DNA of 4,775 bases. It comes from a virus. Taxonomy: Duplodnaviria > Heunggongvirae > Uroviricota > Caudoviricetes. The stretch lies in IMG/VR virus record IMGVR_UViG_3300015188_000046; one strand, written 5' to 3'. The notes beneath the pieces are model-generated. The model saw only the letters and a list, made by a program, of their open reading frames with translations. It had not been told where the DNA came from and did not search any database. Shown piece after piece: positions 1-4,775 of the stretch. The translations under genes were made by a program, and so were the position numbers. Each line of letters begins with the position of its first letter. The stretch's first letter is position 1.

Positions 1-31
1 ACTGGAGTTCAGACGTGTGCTCTTCCGATCT
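1..31. other. Illumina TruSeq-type adapter sequence (technical artefact, not biological)
   Basis: Positions 1-31 read ACTGGAGTTCAGACGTGTGCTCTTCCGATCT, the 3' part of the TruSeq indexed-adapter / read-2 primer site. Identified from memory of the adapter sequence. Confidence 0.9.
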
Positions 32-1538: not shown

Positions 1539-1810
1539 GCATTCGTATTGAAATTGGCGAACGTTATGTCGTTACCAGTGACAGCTTTCAGTTTATTCTC
1601 CACGAGAAAAAGAGAGCGGAAAGCGGTAAAAACGCCGGTCAGGAATGGCTGGCGGTGGTTGGTTATTACCCGAAATTAAGCCAGCTCGTTTCCGGCCTGA
1701 TGCATCACGATATTCTGACCGGAAGCGCAAAGTCTTTTGCTGATTTAAACGCACAGGTTGAGCAACTCAGCAGGCGTTGTTCAGAGGCTTTTGGCTCATA
1801 TGGCCGTTAA
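1535..1810 (+). CDS. Hypothetical protein (91 aa), directly upstream of and overlapping the replication initiator gene (P2 orf83 position)
   Basis: ATG 1535 with GGAG (1525-1528) six nt upstream; stop TAA 1808-1810. Overlaps the ATG-1800 start of the next gene by 11 nt. Confidence 0.75.
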   Translation: MSIRIEIGERYVVTSDSFQFILHEKKRAESGKNAGQEWLAVVGYYPKLSQLVSGLMHHDILTGSAKSFADLNAQVEQLSRRCSEAFGSYGR

Positions 1811-4088
1811 AGCCTCCGGGCGTTTTGTCCCTCCGTCAGCATTTGCCGCAGGCACCGGTAAGACGTTTACCGGTGCTTATGCATGGAACGCGCCACGCGA
1901 GGCTGTCGGGCGCGAAAGACCCCTTACACGTGACGAGATGCGTCAGGTGCAAGGTGTTTTATCCACGATTAACCGCCTGCCTTACTTTTTGCGCTCGCTG
2001 TTTACTTCACGTTATGACTACATCCGGCGCAATAAAAGCCCGGTGCACGGGTTTTATTTCCTCACATCCACTTTTCAGCGTCGTTTATGGCCGCGCATTG
2101 AGCGTGTGAATCAGCGCCATGAAATGAACACCGACGCGTCGTTGCTGTTTCTGGCAGAGCGTGACCACTATGCGCGCCTGCCGGGAATGAATGACAAGGA
2201 GCTGAAAAAGTTTGCTGCCCGTATCTCATCGCAGCTTTTCATGATGTATGAGGAACTCTGCGATGCCTGGGTTGATGCACATGGCGAAAAAGAATCGCTG
2301 TTTACGGATGAGGCGCAGGCTCACCTCTATGGTCATGTTGCTGGCGCTGCACGTGCTTTCAATATTTCCCCGCTCTACTGGAAAAAATACCGTAAAGGAC
2401 AGATGACCACGAGGCAGGCATATTCTGCCATTGCCCGTCTGTTTAACGATGAGTGGTGGACTCATCAGCTCAAAGGCCAGCGTATGCGCTGGCATGAGGC
2501 GTTACTGATTGCTGTCGGGGAGGTGAATAAAGACCGTTCTCCTTATGCCAGTAAACATGCCATTCGTGATGTACGTGCACGCCGCCAGGCAAATCTGGAA
2601 TTTCTTAAATCGTGTGACCTTGAAAACAGGGAAACCGGCGAGCGCATCGACCTTATCAGTAAGGTGATGGGCAGTATTTCTAATCCTGAAATTCGCCGGA
2701 TGGAGCTGATGAACACCATTGCCGGCATTGAGCGTTACGCCGCCGCAGAGGGTGATGTGGGGATGTTTATCACGCTGACCGCGCCGTCAAAGTATCACCC
2801 GACACGTCAAGTCGGAAAAGGCGAAAGTAAAACCGTTCAGCTTAATCACGGCTGGAACGATGAGGCATTTAATCCAAAGGATGCGCAGCGTTATCTCTGC
2901 CGCATCTGGAGCCTGATGCGCACGGCATTCAAGGATAATGATTTACAGGTCTACGGTTTGCGAGTCGTCGAGCCACACCACGACGGAACGCCGCACTGGC
3001 ATATGATGCTTTTTTGTAATCCACGCCAGCGTAACCAGATTATCGAAATCATGCGTCGCTATGCGCTCAAAGAGGATGGTGACGAAAGAGGAGCCGCGCG
3101 AAACCGTTTTCAGGCAAAGCACCTTAACCGGGGCGGTGCTGCGGGATATATCGCGAAATACATCTCAAAAAACATCGATGGCTATGCACTGGATGGTCAG
3201 CTCGATAACGATACCGGCAGGCCGCTGAAAGACACTGCTGCGGCTGTTACCGCATGGGCGTCAACGTGGCGCATCCCGCAATTTAAAACGGTTGGCCTGC
3301 CGACAATGGGAGCTTACCGTGAGCTACGTAAATTGCCTCGCGGCGTCAGCATTGCTGATGAATTTGACGAACGCGTGGAGGCTGCACGCGCCGCCGCAGA
3401 CAGTGGCGATTTTGCGCTTTATATCAGCGCGCAGGGTGGGGCAAATGTCCCGCGCGATTGTCAGACTGTCAGGGTCGCCCGTAGCCCGTCGGATGACGTT
3501 AACGAGTACGAGGAAGAAGTCGAGAGAGTGGTCGGCATTTACGCGCCGCATCTCGGCGCGCGTCATATTCATATCACCAGAACGACGGACTGGCGCATTG
3601 TTCCGAAAGTTCCGGTCGTTGAGCCTTTGACTTTAAAAAGCGGCATCGCCGCGCCTCGGAGTCCTGTCAATAACTGTGGAAAGCCTGCCAGCAGTGATGC
3701 TTCGTTACCGGCTCCCACACCTTCTGAACACGCCGCAGCAGTGCTTAATCTGGTAGATGACGGTGTTATCGAATGGAATGACCCGGAGGTTGTGAGGGCG
3801 CTCAGGGGGGCATTAAAACACGGACTGAGAAGACCAAATCGCCAGCAAAGAAACGGAAGCCCGTTAAAACCACATGAAATAGCGCCATCGGCCAGACTGA
3901 CCCGGTCGGAACGAATGCAAATTACCCGTATCCGCGTTGACCTTGCTCAGAACGGTATCAGGCCTCAGCGATGGGAGATTGAGGCGCTGGCGCGTGGGGC
4001 AACCGTAAATTATGACGGGAAAAAATTCACGTATATGGTTACTAATGAGTGGTTCGGATTTCGAGATGAAGAGTCATTTTTCATGTAA
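1800..4088 (+). CDS. A: Rolling-circle replication initiator endonuclease, P2 gpA family (HUH endonuclease), ~762 aa
   Basis: Long ORF ending TAA 4086-4088. HUH motif P-H-W-H-M-M-L-F (HWH codons at 2994-3002). Paired active-site tyrosines in G-Y-I-A-K-Y-I-S-K (Tyr codons 3147-3149 and 3159-3161), the same Y-x-x-K-Y arrangement as phiX174 gpA. Start placed at the first ATG (1800); the ORF-track start at 1758 is a TTG without a convincing SD. The length matches P2 A (~761 aa) as I recall it. Confidence 0.9.
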   Translation: MAVKASGRFVPPSAFAAGTGKTFTGAYAWNAPREAVGRERPLTRDEMRQVQGVLSTINRLPYFLRSLFTSRYDYIRRNKSPVHGFYFLTSTFQRRLWPRIERVNQRHEMNTDASLLFLAERDHYARLPGMNDKELKKFAARISSQLFMMYEELCDAWVDAHGEKESLFTDEAQAHLYGHVAGAARAFNISPLYWKKYRKGQMTTRQAYSAIARLFNDEWWTHQLKGQRMRWHEALLIAVGEVNKDRSPYASKHAIRDVRARRQANLEFLKSCDLENRETGERIDLISKVMGSISNPEIRRMELMNTIAGIERYAAAEGDVGMFITLTAPSKYHPTRQVGKGESKTVQLNHGWNDEAFNPKDAQRYLCRIWSLMRTAFKDNDLQVYGLRVVEPHHDGTPHWHMMLFCNPRQRNQIIEIMRRYALKEDGDERGAARNRFQAKHLNRGGAAGYIAKYISKNIDGYALDGQLDNDTGRPLKDTAAAVTAWASTWRIPQFKTVGLPTMGAYRELRKLPRGVSIADEFDERVEAARAAADSGDFALYISAQGGANVPRDCQTVRVARSPSDDVNEYEEEVERVVGIYAPHLGARHIHITRTTDWRIVPKVPVVEPLTLKSGIAAPRSPVNNCGKPASSDASLPAPTPSEHAAAVLNLVDDGVIEWNDPEVVRALRGALKHGLRRPNRQQRNGSPLKPHEIAPSARLTRSERMQITRIRVDLAQNGIRPQRWEIEALARGATVNYDGKKFTYMVTNEWFGFRDEESFFM
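3651..3670 (+). other. Candidate replication origin / gpA nick region inside the A coding sequence (tentative)
   Basis: Sequence GCGCCTCGGAGTCCTGTCAA lies about 81% into the A gene. In P2 the origin is inside the 3' part of gene A, and I recall (unverified) a nick-site sequence of this kind. No hairpin or iteron structure is visible here to support it independently. Confidence 0.25.
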
Positions 4089-4101
4089 AACACTTTAAAA
4101 T

Positions 4102-4143
4102 TCAATGCAATGAAGGCATATCCATGTTGCATTGATATGCCTT
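4102..4143 (+). terminator. Two overlapping, mutually exclusive inverted repeats immediately after the gpA stop; possible operon terminator or regulatory structure
   Basis: IR-A: TCAATGCAA (4102-4110) pairs with TTGCATTGA (4127-4135). IR-B: AAGGCATAT (4113-4121) pairs with ATATGCCTT (4135-4143). They are followed by AT-rich sequence, with a T-run (TTGTTTT) about 15 nt downstream. The stems are AT-rich and the U-tract is not canonical. Confidence 0.3.
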
Positions 4144-4358
4144 TAACTTATTATATATTTGTTTTATATGAAAAAATATCATATACAGGGGGAGCAAATA
4201 CAACGGTTTACTTGTTATGATGCAAACATTGGTTAGTTAGTGAGATATATCGCCATCAATTGGGTATTTTTACCCGTGGAAAGTTAACGCTTTCTAACAC
4301 TTACCCCGCGCAACGCCCCTGCCAGCGACAGGAGTCACAGGATCAGGAGGTATGGCGT

Positions 4359-4652
4359 ATGGGTATTCGAACCCTTTGGGCGACCAAGGGTTCGTGGAGC
4401 AGGGGGCTAGTGCTGTTCAATCTCATCCTTATGAGGGCGAACCATAGTGTTGGAGCAGACATACCGTTTGCACACTATGGGCATAAGGAGCAAATCATGA
4501 AGAATGATAAATTAACCAACGAACAGCAGGCGCAGAACAAGTCAAACCTGAAAAAGTGGGCTGGTTACGCTTGGAAATTAATCAAATGGGGTATTAGACT
4601 GTTTGATTTAGTTACTCGAGCACTGGACTACTTCGAAGGGGGGGATGAGTAA
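4359..4652 (+). CDS. Small hypothetical protein: 97 aa from ATG 4359, or 51 aa from in-frame ATG 4497; first ORF after gpA (P2 orf91 position)
   Basis: ATG 4359 has AGGAGG (4345-4350) eight nt upstream. In-frame ATG 4497 has AAGGAG (4485-4490) six nt upstream. Stop TAA 4650-4652. The ORF-track start at 4260 is a TTG with no SD. The C-terminal part is Trp/Lys-rich and amphipathic (KKWAGYAWKLIKWGIRLFDLV). Confidence 0.45.
   Translation: MGIRTLWATKGSWSRGLVLFNLILMRANHSVGADIPFAHYGHKEQIMKNDKLTNEQQAQNKSNLKKWAGYAWKLIKWGIRLFDLVTRALDYFEGGDE
4368..4480 (+). promoter_or_regulatory. Two strong RNA stem-loops (possible structured leader or regulatory RNA element) overlapping the 5' part of the 4359-4652 ORF
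   Basis: SL1: CGAACCCTTTGG (4368-4379) pairs with CCAAGGGTTCG (4384-4394), giving 11 bp with one bulged T, closed by a GCGA (GNRA-type) tetraloop. SL2: perfect 9-bp inverted repeat CCATAGTGT (4442-4450) / ACACTATGG (4472-4480) around a 21-nt loop. SL2 ends 4 nt before the AAGGAG SD of the 4497 start. Confidence 0.3.
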
Positions 4653-4688
4653 TGCGTCCTCCCTAGTTTCAATAGCATGGAGTTGCCT

Positions 4689-4758
4689 ATGTTACATAAA
4701 GCCCTTCGTTTAATAAGGCAATACCATAAAGAATCAATAGTTGAGTTATCTTCATCTT
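4689..4758 (+). CDS. 5' fragment of an unknown gene that continues beyond the insert end (first ~23 codons only)
   Basis: ATG 4689 with GGAG (4679-4682) six nt upstream; an alternative in-frame ATG at 4677 has no SD. The frame stays open to the adapter junction (the apparent TAG at 4758-4760 is created by the adapter). The fragment is AT-rich, about 32% GC by eye. Confidence 0.3.
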
Positions 4759-4775
4759 AGATCGGAAGAGCGTCG
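4759..4775. other. Illumina adapter read-through (technical artefact)
   Basis: AGATCGGAAGAGCGTCG is the start of the TruSeq universal adapter read-through sequence. Confidence 0.9.

What the first reader, a model, noticed from the sequence alone, without database searches (positions are those of the whole stretch)
4089..4758. Window ends at the edge of the variable accessory locus downstream of gpA
In P2-like phages the segment after replication gene A (orf91-tin-old in P2) is a variable slot that different relatives fill with different anti-phage or accessory genes. Here gpA is followed by an AT-rich intergenic region, a small ORF overlapping structured RNA, and the start of an AT-rich gene that is cut off by the insert end. 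Any novel system would start here, but only about 70 nt of the first larger cargo gene is present, so no system can be called.
Basis: partly seen in the sequence, partly recalled or inferred. Interest (0 to 1): 0.6.

Follow-up and report, generated by a model that had tools for sequence, protein, structure and literature searches.

The report
Front end of a type VI retron
The stretch after the P2-phage replication gene is the complete regulatory RNA and small toxin gene, plus the first 23 codons of the repressor gene, of a known anti-phage system (a type VI retron), so the cargo can be named and is ordinary.

Summary
gpA ends at 4088. An AT-rich spacer follows, then a strongly structured RNA that contains a 51-codon ORF (4497-4652), then 70 nt of a further gene (from 4689). 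An untrimmed Illumina adapter starts at 4759.

The conclusion that no system can be called is wrong. Genomes identical over 4089-4758 continue with a 102-aa HTH protein and a 316-aa reverse transcriptase. These score PADLOC HTH_VI 7e-31 and RT_VI 4e-105. Three small ORFs, cos and portal gene Q follow.

The window holds the whole hybrid RNA (msr-msd-like stems plus the small toxin gene) described for type VI retrons. Covariation supports its fold: 28 pairs with compensatory changes and 96.6% pairing, against about 40% in slid controls. A covariance model of its core finds the same element in 40 distant type VI loci, including the Retron-Vpa2 locus (81 bits). The sequestered ribosome-binding site and the conserved 7-nt repeats reported for Vpa2 are both present.

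The cargo sits in the known P2 gpA-Q defence hotspot, in 100 of 5426 complete E. coli genomes. I rate it already known and of low interest. The likely mechanism is msDNA-dependent release of toxin translation, inferred by homology.

The parts
1..31 (.). Illumina adapter remnant (ACTGGAGTTCAGACGTGTGCTCTTCCGATCT); not biological
   Evidence: Read directly. The adapter identity is from my own knowledge of TruSeq sequences.
1800..4088 (+). P2-type replication endonuclease gene A (left border of the hotspot)
   Evidence: Pfam Phage_GPA 3e-124. RefSeq annotates the same frame as replication endonuclease.
4089..4206 (+). AT-rich spacer. It holds a terminator-like hairpin (4111-4145, followed by a U-rich tract) and a sigma-70-like site (TTGATA 4132-4137, 16 nt, TATATT 4154-4159).
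   Evidence: GC 0.30-0.33. Hairpin fold -19.5 kcal/mol, z = -3.5. Promoter-like site matches 10 of 12, but the count is no more than shuffles give. In E. coli the spacer occurs only in retron carriers (88 genomes). It is replaced by other sequence in Klebsiella, Serratia and Yersinia relatives. Its function is inferred only.
4207..4671 (+). Hybrid RNA (hyRNA) of a type VI retron: non-coding msr-msd-like part plus the SP coding sequence plus a 3' inverted-repeat arm. The exact 5' and 3' ends are not determined.
   Evidence: The conserved block starts near 4207 in the 19-sequence alignment. 127 consensus pairs are 96.6% paired, against 37-44% when partners are slid. 28 pairs show changes on both sides, against 7-14 in slid controls. 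There is no Rfam family and no tRNA.
4261..4295 (+). Two short 5' hairpins (4261-4266/4271-4276 and 4278-4284/4289-4295), msr-like
   Evidence: Helices 4 and 5 are 99-100% paired, with 4 pairs changed on both sides. The same two hairpins fold in the Vpa2 locus L130.
4304..4363 (+). Long stem with a variable tip; the candidate msd (reverse-transcription template)
   Evidence: Helices 6-8 (basal pairs conserved, 3 pairs with double changes). Relatives carry a 20-25 nt insertion at the tip. It folds as one stem. The assignment as template is by analogy with the 63-nt Vpa2 msDNA, which maps to the long stem (10.1101/2025.10.22.683967).
4368..4394 (+). Hairpin D, with conserved loop repeat GGGCGAC (4378-4384). 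It is the candidate for the 5' stem-loop of the full-length msDNA.
   Evidence: The stem is conserved, with compensatory changes (L025, L124, C5, Dickeya). In distant loci all 9 pairs show double changes (helix 1). The position immediately 3' of the long stem matches the 23-nt extension described for Vpa2.
4395..4406 (+). 5' arm of the long-range inverted repeat; it pairs with 4659-4671, just after the SP stop codon
   Evidence: Helix 10: 12 pairs, 98.7% paired, changes on one side only (G-U to A-U). It corresponds to the inverted repeats that close the hyRNA in both preprints.
4411..4418 (+). ncRNA strand of helix F; it pairs with SP codons 9-11 (GAACAGCA, 4521-4528)
   Evidence: Invariant in the 19 close sequences. 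In 40 distant loci, 7 of 8 pairs show compensatory changes and 98.4% of cells are paired (helix 2).
4426..4490 (+). Riboregulator arm. Helix G (4426-4433/4482-4489) sequesters the SP Shine-Dalgarno AAGGAG (4485-4490). The second repeat copy GGGCGAA (4435-4441) sits in its internal loop. The apical hairpin is 4442-4449/4473-4480 plus 4455-4460/4466-4471.
   Evidence: helices 13 and 14 have 7 pairs with double changes; helices 3-6 covary throughout. The repeats were read. Both match the '7 nt direct repeats' and the sequestered RBS of Zhang et al.
4497..4652 (+). SP: a 51-aa small-protein toxin gene embedded in the hyRNA
   Evidence: A 45-56-codon ORF with an RBS sits at the same place in nearly all of about 100 related loci. 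It matches phrog_15287, unknown function, 1.6e-38. It has no Pfam, PADLOC or NCBIfam model. The predicted structure is a single helix, pLDDT 85, amphipathic over residues about 21-47. The toxin role comes from experiments on the Vpa2 and Sen3 homologues, not from a test here.
4659..4671 (+). 3' arm of the long-range inverted repeat
   Evidence: Helix 10.
4689..4758 (+). First 23 codons (MLHKALRLIRQYHKESIVELSSS) of the type VI HTH gene, cut by the contig end
   Evidence: The DNA is 100% identical to E. coli LWY24, where the gene is WP_001310277.1. The full protein scores PADLOC HTH_VI 6.7e-31. It is 48% identical to the Vpa2-locus HTH, with R7 conserved.
4759..4775 (.). Illumina adapter (AGATCGGAAGAGCGTCG); not biological
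   Evidence: Read. The adapter identity is from my own knowledge.

Best explanation
Window 4207-4758 is the 5' part of a type VI retron, carried as cargo in the gpA-Q hotspot of a P2-like (Peduovirus) prophage of E. coli. The operon is hyRNA (containing SP), then HTH, then RT. The window contains the full hyRNA and SP and the first 23 codons of HTH. The RT lies beyond the adapter.

The likely mechanism is inferred by homology to Retron-Vpa2. One transcript carries both the reverse-transcription template (long stem 4304-4363 plus hairpin 4368-4394) and the toxin mRNA. At rest the SP ribosome-binding site is locked in helix 4426-4433/4482-4489. The HTH protein, bound to the RT and the hyRNA, holds reverse transcription down.

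Infection by phages that carry recombination or anti-RecBCD functions lets msDNA accumulate. I predict this msDNA to be about 90 nt, complementary to roughly 4302-4394. Its 5' stem-loop carries the complement of GGGCGAC. That complement can pair with the second repeat copy (4435-4441) in the riboregulator, open it, and allow SP translation. The amphipathic helical SP then arrests the cell (abortive infection).

Shown here: identity of the locus, the gene order, the RNA fold and its homology to the Vpa2 RNA. Inferred: the template limits, the trigger, the derepression step and SP toxicity.
For: Locus identity:
- 4089-4758 is 100% identical to E. coli LWY24 and 99.7-99.9% identical to ECONIH5 and O157:H7 strains.
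- In those genomes SP is followed by a 102-aa HTH and a 316-aa RT, then three small ORFs and portal gene Q.
- PADLOC scores HTH_VI 6.7e-31 and RT_VI 4.1e-105, far above other retron types.

Link to Retron-Vpa2:
- The RT is 54% identical to a V. parahaemolyticus RT (P0075).
- That locus (L130) encodes a 55-aa SP with K15, I39, F43 and F45. These are the residues mutated in Retron-Vpa2 (10.1101/2025.10.22.683967).
- The HTH is 48% identical, with R7 kept.

RNA:
- Fold z = -4.7.
- Consensus fold with 28 compensatory pairs, 96.6% paired against about 40% in slid controls, and 0 of 500 shuffles reaching the covariation score.
- A covariance model of 4365-4530 hits 40 of 55 distant type VI loci at the expected place and strand, including L130 at 80.9 bits.
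- In those hits 95.9% of cells pair and 514 cells show double changes, against 71-130 in slid controls.
- The sequestered RBS, the closing inverted repeat after the SP stop and the two GGGCGA(C/A) repeats match published hyRNA features.
- The long stem plus adjacent hairpin are 60 + 27 nt here, against 63 + 23 nt of msDNA in Vpa2.

Hotspot: retrons between gpA and gpQ are reported in PMC9122126.
Against: - The RT and four fifths of the HTH gene are not in the window. Their presence is inferred from identical public genomes. The exact parent is not in the collection; the best match over the whole window is 97.8%.
- Relatives exist in which a 97%-identical hyRNA-SP is joined to an HTH-RT only 78-84% identical. 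The 70 nt of HTH present match the LWY24 type.
- No experiment exists for this particular element, unless it is Retron-Eco12, which I could not check.
- The second characterised type VI retron (Sen3) uses a different, post-translational logic, so the mechanism cannot be transferred with certainty.
- Transcript ends, promoter and priming site are not determined.
- The alignment used was fitted to the model, which inflates pair counts.
Confidence: 0.85

Rival explanations
1. Same type VI retron, but with Sen3-type control. SP and ssDNA are made constitutively, HTH neutralises SP protein post-translationally, and inhibition of RecBCD triggers release. The RNA structure would then be scaffold only.
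For: Retron-Sen3, an enterobacterial type VI retron, works this way (10.64898/2026.04.27.721009). It also has a sequestered RBS and an inverted repeat flanking SP, so those features do not discriminate between the two mechanisms. The SP here has a strongly amphipathic C-terminal helix (hydrophobic moment up to 0.85), which that paper links to HTH binding.
Against: Sen3 belongs to the cl2075 lineage, with 75-79-aa SPs. Here SP is 51 aa. The RT, the HTH and, above all, the RNA core are homologous to Vpa2, including both 7-nt repeats proposed for msDNA-riboregulator pairing. Retron-Eco12 from E. coli gave no detectable basal msDNA, like Vpa2.
Confidence: 0.25
2. The small ORF and the structured RNA form a stand-alone small-toxin/RNA module (type I or type III toxin-antitoxin-like) that merely sits next to a retron RT.
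For: In Sen3 the HTH-SP pair works without RT or ncRNA. The hyRNA-SP block recombines separately from HTH-RT.
Against: In every one of about 100 loci examined, the RNA and SP lie at a fixed distance upstream of an HTH-RT pair (SP start about 480 nt before the RT start). This holds across Enterobacterales, Vibrio, Acinetobacter and metagenomes and across different flanking genes. No copy without HTH-RT was seen, although the loci were collected through the RT, so this is a biased test.
Confidence: 0.03
3. The segment is canonical P2 orf91-tin-old, or non-defence cargo or backbone leading directly to cos.
For: None, beyond the position after gpA.
Against: Searches of phage records return only P22H1 and Klebsiella P2-like phages that carry the same RT locus, not phage P2. 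PADLOC gives retron VI models and no Old or Tin match. The segment is absent from most genomes that have the backbone (100 against 1727).
Confidence: 0.01
4. A chance ORF in a chance-structured AT/GC-mixed intergenic region.
For: the ORF listing also reports a 130-aa TTG ORF and short antisense ORFs here, which shows that mechanical ORFs abound.
Against: The ORF, its RBS and its length are conserved down to 35-45% RT identity. Compensatory base changes occur in 28 pairs of the close set and 38 pairs of the distant set. 0 of 100 shuffles fold as well.
Confidence: 0.005

Closest known systems
Retron-Vpa2 (type VI retron of Vibrio parahaemolyticus; Zhang et al., bioRxiv 10.1101/2025.10.22.683967)
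   Same: Same operon order: hyRNA containing SP, then HTH overlapping RT. The RT is 54% and the HTH 48% identical. The RNA core is homologous (81 bits). It shares the two 5' hairpins, the long stem and the adjacent hairpin, the sequestered RBS, the two 7-nt repeats and the closing inverted repeat after the SP stop. HTH R7 is conserved.
   Different: SP is 51 aa rather than 55 and barely alignable (33% over 24 residues, E = 0.008). It is less aromatic and more amphipathic. The host is E. coli and the carrier a P2-like prophage hotspot, rather than a chromosomal site next to hipA/rpoD. No experimental data exist for this copy.
Retron-Eco12 (type VI retron from E. coli, tested in the same preprint; defends against lambda vir and gives no detectable basal msDNA)
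   Same: Same species and type, and described as phylogenetically related to Vpa2. The RT here (WP_000746343.1) is the commonest E. coli cluster among the RT homologues found (169 member sequences), so it may be the same element.
   Different: Identity could not be tested. The held text and supplements give no sequence or accession for Eco12. E. coli has at least three further variants: the L015 type, the L021/65COLEC type, and the non-P2 strain C5 type.
Retron-Sen3 and the cl2075 lineage (Garcia-Rodriguez et al., bioRxiv 10.64898/2026.04.27.721009)
   Same: SP-HTH-RT order, a structured ncRNA with a sequestered RBS, an inverted repeat flanking SP, the SP coding region under RNA structural constraint, and an enterobacterial host.
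   Different: The SP family is different (79 aa with an N-terminal extension). ssDNA and SP are constitutive and control is post-translational. According to that paper it belongs to a different RT subclade from Vpa2.
P2 old/tin locus: the gpA-gpQ defence hotspot of P2-like phages (Rousset et al. 2022, PMC9122126)
   Same: Same genomic slot, next to cos, between gpA and portal gene Q. Retrons are among the systems listed there.
   Different: The content is unrelated to orf91, tin or old.
Canonical retrons (Ec86/Eco1, Ec48/Eco6 and others)
   Same: A retron-clade RT. The parent RT contains NAKAH, YVDD and VTG, read in the translation and recognised as retron motifs from my own knowledge. The template is a structured RNA upstream of the RT.
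   Different: In type VI retrons the effector mRNA is part of the template RNA. msDNA is not abundant at rest and acts as an activator rather than an antitoxin. No Rfam retron msr family matches.

Membership tests
Type VI retron (Mestre 2020 classification; PADLOC retron VI) | Reverse transcriptase of the type VI clade | tested here: met
   The RT is not in the window. In genomes 100% or 99.7-99.9% identical over 4089-4758, the RT scores PADLOC RT_VI 4.1e-105; the next best is RT_III-A at 5e-45.
Type VI retron (Mestre 2020 classification; PADLOC retron VI) | Cro/C1-type HTH protein of 91-110 aa, immediately upstream of and overlapping the RT | tested here: met
   102 aa; PADLOC HTH_VI 6.7e-31; overlaps the RT by 23 nt. 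Only codons 1-23 (4689-4757) are in the window, and they are identical to the parent.
Type VI retron (Mestre 2020 classification; PADLOC retron VI) | Small helical accessory protein (SP) encoded upstream of HTH | tested here: met
   A 51-aa ORF at 4497-4652. The syntenic ORF of 45-56 aa is present across about 100 loci. The model is a single helix. It is not one of the four named SP clusters by length (75-79 aa). It behaves like the 'Large'-clade SPs such as that of Vpa2. Cluster assignment itself was not tested.
Type VI hybrid RNA (hyRNA; Zhang et al. 2025) | Structured RNA with an msr-msd-like arm contiguous with the SP coding sequence, closed by inverted repeats | tested here: met
   Covariation-supported fold of 4261-4671. 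The inverted repeat is 4395-4406/4659-4671. The core is homologous to the Vpa2 locus RNA.
Type VI hybrid RNA (hyRNA; Zhang et al. 2025) | SP ribosome-binding site sequestered in a stem, and conserved 7-nt direct repeats in the msd-side loop and the riboregulator loop | tested here: met
   Helix 4426-4433/4482-4489 covers AAGGA of the Shine-Dalgarno. It is invariant in close relatives and covaries in distant ones. GGGCGAC at 4378-4384 and GGGCGAA at 4435-4441 are invariant or nearly so.
Type VI hybrid RNA (hyRNA; Zhang et al. 2025) | Enriched transcript of about 470 nt; RT-dependent msDNA from the long stem; msDNA-dependent SP translation; phage defence | not testable with these tools
   Needs RNA-seq, Spacer-seq or PAGE, reporter assays and plaque assays.
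Retron-Eco12 (identity with the tested E. coli element) | Sequence identity with plasmid pMRM38 insert | not testable with these tools
   No sequence or accession is in the held text or supplements. An accession search found nothing.
P2-like gpA-gpQ defence hotspot (Rousset 2022) | Cargo lies between replication gene A and portal gene Q, next to cos, and varies between otherwise similar prophages | tested here: met
   gpA is at 1800-4088. In parent genomes Q lies 3.1 kb downstream. The backbone is in 1727 genomes and this cargo in 100.
P2 orf91-tin-old | Homology to P2 Orf91, Tin or Old | tested here: not met
   No P2 record appears among the phage hits. No Old or Tin model hit in PADLOC for any of the six cargo proteins.
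tRNA/tmRNA or a curated Rfam RNA | Match to ARAGORN or to an Rfam covariance model | tested here: not met
   0 tRNA or tmRNA genes. 0 Rfam matches at E <= 1.

The most novel reading that the evidence does not exclude
In the P2-borne enterobacterial lineage the hyRNA-SP cassette and the HTH-RT cassette may be exchanged independently. The evidence is 97% identity in the hyRNA-SP block against 78-84% in HTH-RT, with a break at the HTH start, almost exactly where this window ends. SP codons 6-13 are also locked in up to three conserved helices with the non-coding part. This could mean that recognition between RT/HTH and the RNA rests only on the invariant core (hairpin 4368-4394, the GGGCGA repeats, helix 4411-4418/4521-4528). 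It could also mean that ribosome passage through these codons remodels the template, giving a translation-reverse transcription feedback not described so far. Read-through from the P2 early operon into the retron upon prophage induction is a further untested possibility.
Probability: 0.2. Interest if true: 0.35.

Novelty: already known. Interest (0 to 1): 0.15.

Why it matters
It matters little for discovery. The family, its unusual hybrid RNA, an E. coli member and the P2 hotspot location are all published or preprinted. Identical copies sit in about 2% of complete E. coli genomes, including O157:H7.

There are three practical points:
- A truncated contig can still be assigned, because the RNA and SP part of type VI retrons is diagnostic. 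A covariance model of 4365-4530 recovers distant members.
- No Rfam, Pfam, NCBIfam or PADLOC model covers the hyRNA or SP. Standard annotation therefore shows only 'hypothetical protein' here and would miss fragments like this one.
- The mapped elements give ready-made targets for testing the Vpa2 model in a native E. coli prophage. They are the predicted template, the repeats and the RBS helix.

Tried and rejected
- Rfam at E <= 1 and ARAGORN found nothing. The tRNA-like look of GGGTATTCGAACCC / AAGGGTTCG is hairpin D of the retron RNA.
- A genome-contig scan with the single RT gave only 2 loci. The RT alignment A1 had to be used on viral and metagenome contigs instead.
- I looked for the Retron-Eco12 sequence in the preprint's supplements, by name across the paper library, and by the accession WP_000746343. 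None was found, so identity with Eco12 stays open.
- Promoter: the only consensus hit (4132-4159) lies in the lineage-specific spacer and is no more than chance gives. By eye, I could not derive a convincing -35/-10 pair from the conserved block 4207-4260. The transcription start is left undetermined.
- A leader-CDS pairing (UUGGUUA 4230-4236 with UAACCAA 4513-4519) is possible. It rests on one compensatory event shared by two sister sequences, and RNAalifold preferred a local hairpin. I do not claim it.
- The 8-nt direct repeat TGGAGCAG (4395-4402 and 4451-4458) is not conserved in relatives. It is not the functional repeat; GGGCGA(C/A) is.
- The 130-aa TTG ORF (4260-4652) and the 73-aa ATG extension are in-frame artefacts. 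They are open only in the E. coli lineage and lack an RBS.
- SP has no Pfam, PADLOC or NCBIfam family. The single-sequence AlphaFold model is one long helix, which is too featureless for a fold search, so I ran none.
Full report
**What is in the sequence**

The window is a P2-like early region. It carries a DUF2732 gene, two DUF5405 genes, a TraR/DksA zinc-finger gene and gpA (1800-4088, Phage_GPA 3e-124). Both ends of the window are untrimmed Illumina adapter (1-31 and 4759-4775). The 'insert end' at 4758 is therefore technical.

After the gpA stop, GC drops to 0.30-0.33. The segment 4089-4206 holds a terminator-like hairpin (4111-4145, z = -3.5) and one promoter-like site that is no better than chance.

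From about 4207 the sequence becomes GC-normal and highly structured. The MFE of 4225-4700 is -166 kcal/mol, z = -4.7. A 51-codon ORF with AAGGAG 6 nt upstream runs from 4497 to 4652. A further ORF starts at 4689 and is cut after 70 nt.

**What follows in identical genomes**

Segment 4089-4758 is 100% identical to E. coli LWY24. It is 99.7-99.9% identical to ECONIH5 and a series of O157:H7 strains. It occurs in 100 of 5426 complete E. coli genomes.

In those genomes the order is gpA, the 51-aa ORF, a 102-aa HTH protein, an overlapping 316-aa reverse transcriptase, three small ORFs of unknown function, and portal gene Q. PADLOC scores the two larger proteins as HTH_VI (6.7e-31) and RT_VI (4.1e-105). 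This is a type VI retron.

The backbone part of the window matches 1727 genomes. The cargo is thus one of many alternatives in this slot. This fits the published gpA-gpQ defence hotspot, where retrons are listed (PMC9122126). P2's own orf91-tin-old is not present.

**What is known about such systems**

Two preprints describe type VI retrons. In Retron-Vpa2, one 'hybrid RNA' carries an msr-msd-like template and the mRNA of a small toxic protein, SP. The SP ribosome-binding site and start codon are sequestered. HTH represses reverse transcription. Phage recombination proteins let msDNA accumulate, and that msDNA releases SP translation. Its 5' stem-loop carries a conserved 7-nt repeat (10.1101/2025.10.22.683967). 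The same paper showed that Retron-Eco12 from E. coli defends against lambda vir.

Retron-Sen3 belongs to another lineage, with 79-aa SPs. It makes ssDNA and SP constitutively and is controlled post-translationally by HTH on RecBCD inhibition (10.64898/2026.04.27.721009).

**Linking the window to Vpa2**

An RT homologue search gave V. parahaemolyticus RTs at 54-58% identity. The locus of one of them (L130) encodes a 55-aa SP with K15, I39, F43 and F45, exactly the residues mutated in the Vpa2 paper. I therefore take L130 as Retron-Vpa2.

The HTH is 48% identical and keeps R7. R7 lies inside the window.

The SPs themselves are barely alignable but share a plan. The N-terminus is polar with QQ or WQ, the middle is basic, W26 is conserved, and an amphipathic or hydrophobic helix ends in an acidic F-E-G-G-D-E-like tail.

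**The RNA**

I collected about 130 related loci from viral and metagenome contigs and by exact-protein look-up. I then aligned 19 hyRNA regions with 62-100% RT identity.

RNAalifold gives 127 pairs, of which 28 show changes on both sides. On the same structure 96.6% of cells pair, against 37-44% when partners are slid. 93 cells carry double changes, against 10-22 in slid controls. 0 of 500 shuffles reach the covariation score.

In window coordinates the elements are:
- two 5' hairpins, 4261-4276 and 4278-4295;
- a long stem, 4304-4363, whose tip carries 20-25 nt insertions in relatives;
- hairpin 4368-4394, with loop GGGCGAC;
- a long-range helix, 4395-4406 with 4659-4671, just after the SP stop;
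- helix 4411-4418 with SP codons 9-11 (4521-4528);
- helix 4426-4433 with 4482-4489, which covers the Shine-Dalgarno;
- an internal loop with GGGCGAA (4435-4441);
- an apical hairpin, 4442-4480, rich in compensatory changes;
- further helices inside the SP coding sequence.

A covariance model of 4365-4530 found the same core at the expected position and strand in 40 of 55 more distant type VI loci, including L130 at 80.9 bits. In that set, the helices that are invariant among close relatives covary strongly: 95.9% of cells pair and 514 cells show double changes, against 71-130 in slid controls. That alignment is fitted to the model, which favours the structure.

L130 folds into the same series of two hairpins, a long stem and an adjacent hairpin.

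The published msDNA of Vpa2 is 63 nt from the long stem plus a 23-nt extension on the right. By position this corresponds to 4304-4363 plus 4368-4394 here. This mapping is an inference.

**Mechanism and rivals**

The identity of the element is secure; I put it at about 0.95.

The mode of control is less secure. I favour the Vpa2-type msDNA-dependent translational derepression, at about 0.6. The reasons are that the RNA core, both repeats, the RT and the HTH are homologous to Vpa2, and that the SP is of the short kind. Sen3-type post-translational control remains possible, at about 0.25, and the two need not exclude each other.

A stand-alone toxin-RNA module, P2 tin/old, and chance are effectively excluded.

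**Novelty**

Nothing here lies outside what is described. I could not establish whether this is Retron-Eco12 itself, because no sequence is available in the held papers.

Small additions from this work are:
- the element-by-element map for the P2-borne lineage;
- the observation that hyRNA-SP and HTH-RT recombine separately;
- the fact that none of Rfam, Pfam, NCBIfam or PADLOC has a model for the RNA or the SP. PHROGs has the SP only as a family of unknown function.

Noticed in passing
window 1-31 and 4759-4775: Both contig ends are untrimmed Illumina adapter sequence. The window is an assembly product bounded by adapters, and the first and last bases should not be interpreted biologically. 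The mechanical ORF 17-226 starts inside the adapter.
   Followed up: yes
NZ_CP054556.1 (L132), and other RefSeq records whose match starts at 2290 or 2261: Several 'complete' E. coli chromosomes start exactly at the first base of the prophage gpA gene (CDS 1-2289 in LWY24). Start-fixing software probably took the phage replication endonuclease for a chromosomal replication gene and rotated the genome there.
   Followed up: partly
L015 (IMGVR_UViG_2925886489_000001) against L001: Mosaic retron. The ncRNA and SP are 97% identical to the window type and the SP-HTH spacer is 100% identical, but HTH is 84% and RT 77-78% identical. A recombination break therefore lies at about the HTH start. L007 shows the reverse pattern: HTH 100% and RT 98% identical at the DNA level, but the SP protein only 90% identical (DNA 95-96%).
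   Followed up: partly
L121 (E. coli strain C5, NZ_CP010122.1 2219256-2220685) and L127: A second, diverged type VI retron of E. coli (RT 65% identical, hyRNA 71% at the DNA level). It lies outside any P2 prophage, near yeiP, next to DUF4236 and YkgJ-family genes and a recombinase.
   Followed up: partly
L001 10962-11892 (about 1.5-2.4 kb beyond the window end): Three small ORFs lie between the RT and cos: 145 aa on the minus strand, 64 aa on the plus strand, and 89 aa on the minus strand. They match phrog_2266, phrog_2454 and phrog_6595, all of unknown function, with no PADLOC, Pfam or NCBIfam hit. The first two also follow the RT in Klebsiella phage ST147-VIM1phi7.1. Other relatives carry different genes there: an HNH protein in Serratia L126, and 246-266-aa hypothetical proteins in L125 and L122. 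A second variable sub-slot therefore follows the retron.
   Followed up: partly
L001 11917-11935: GGCGAGGCGGGGAAAGCAC lies between the last cargo ORF and portal gene Q. From memory this is the P2 19-nt cohesive-end sequence, which would mark the right border of the hotspot. I did not check it against a reference.
   Followed up: no
window 4510-4534 (SP codons 5-13, LTNEQQAQ): The most conserved part of the SP peptide coincides with RNA helices: 4521-4528 with 4411-4418, 4529-4534 with 4653-4658, and possibly 4513-4519 with 4230-4236. The QQ (or WQ in distant relatives) motif may be conserved for RNA pairing rather than for protein function. Distant relatives change the codons together with the ncRNA strand.
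   Followed up: partly
window 4395-4402 and 4451-4458: An exact 8-nt direct repeat, TGGAGCAG, is specific to the E. coli lineage. The second copy is not conserved in relatives. It differs from the conserved GGGCGA repeats, and its significance is unknown.
   Followed up: partly
L128 (Dickeya) and L124 (Acerihabitans): The same retron family sits next to QatB/QueC/TatD genes (a Qat-type defence cluster) in Dickeya. It sits next to VirB8/CagX type IV secretion genes in Acerihabitans. The retron therefore travels on several kinds of mobile or defence islands, not only on P2-like phages.
   Followed up: no
window 4677-4688 and 4716-4727: The inverted repeat ATGGAGTTGCCT / AGGCAATACCAT (83% complementary) could fold the HTH ribosome-binding site and start codon against HTH codons 10-13. 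I did not test it for conservation.
   Followed up: no
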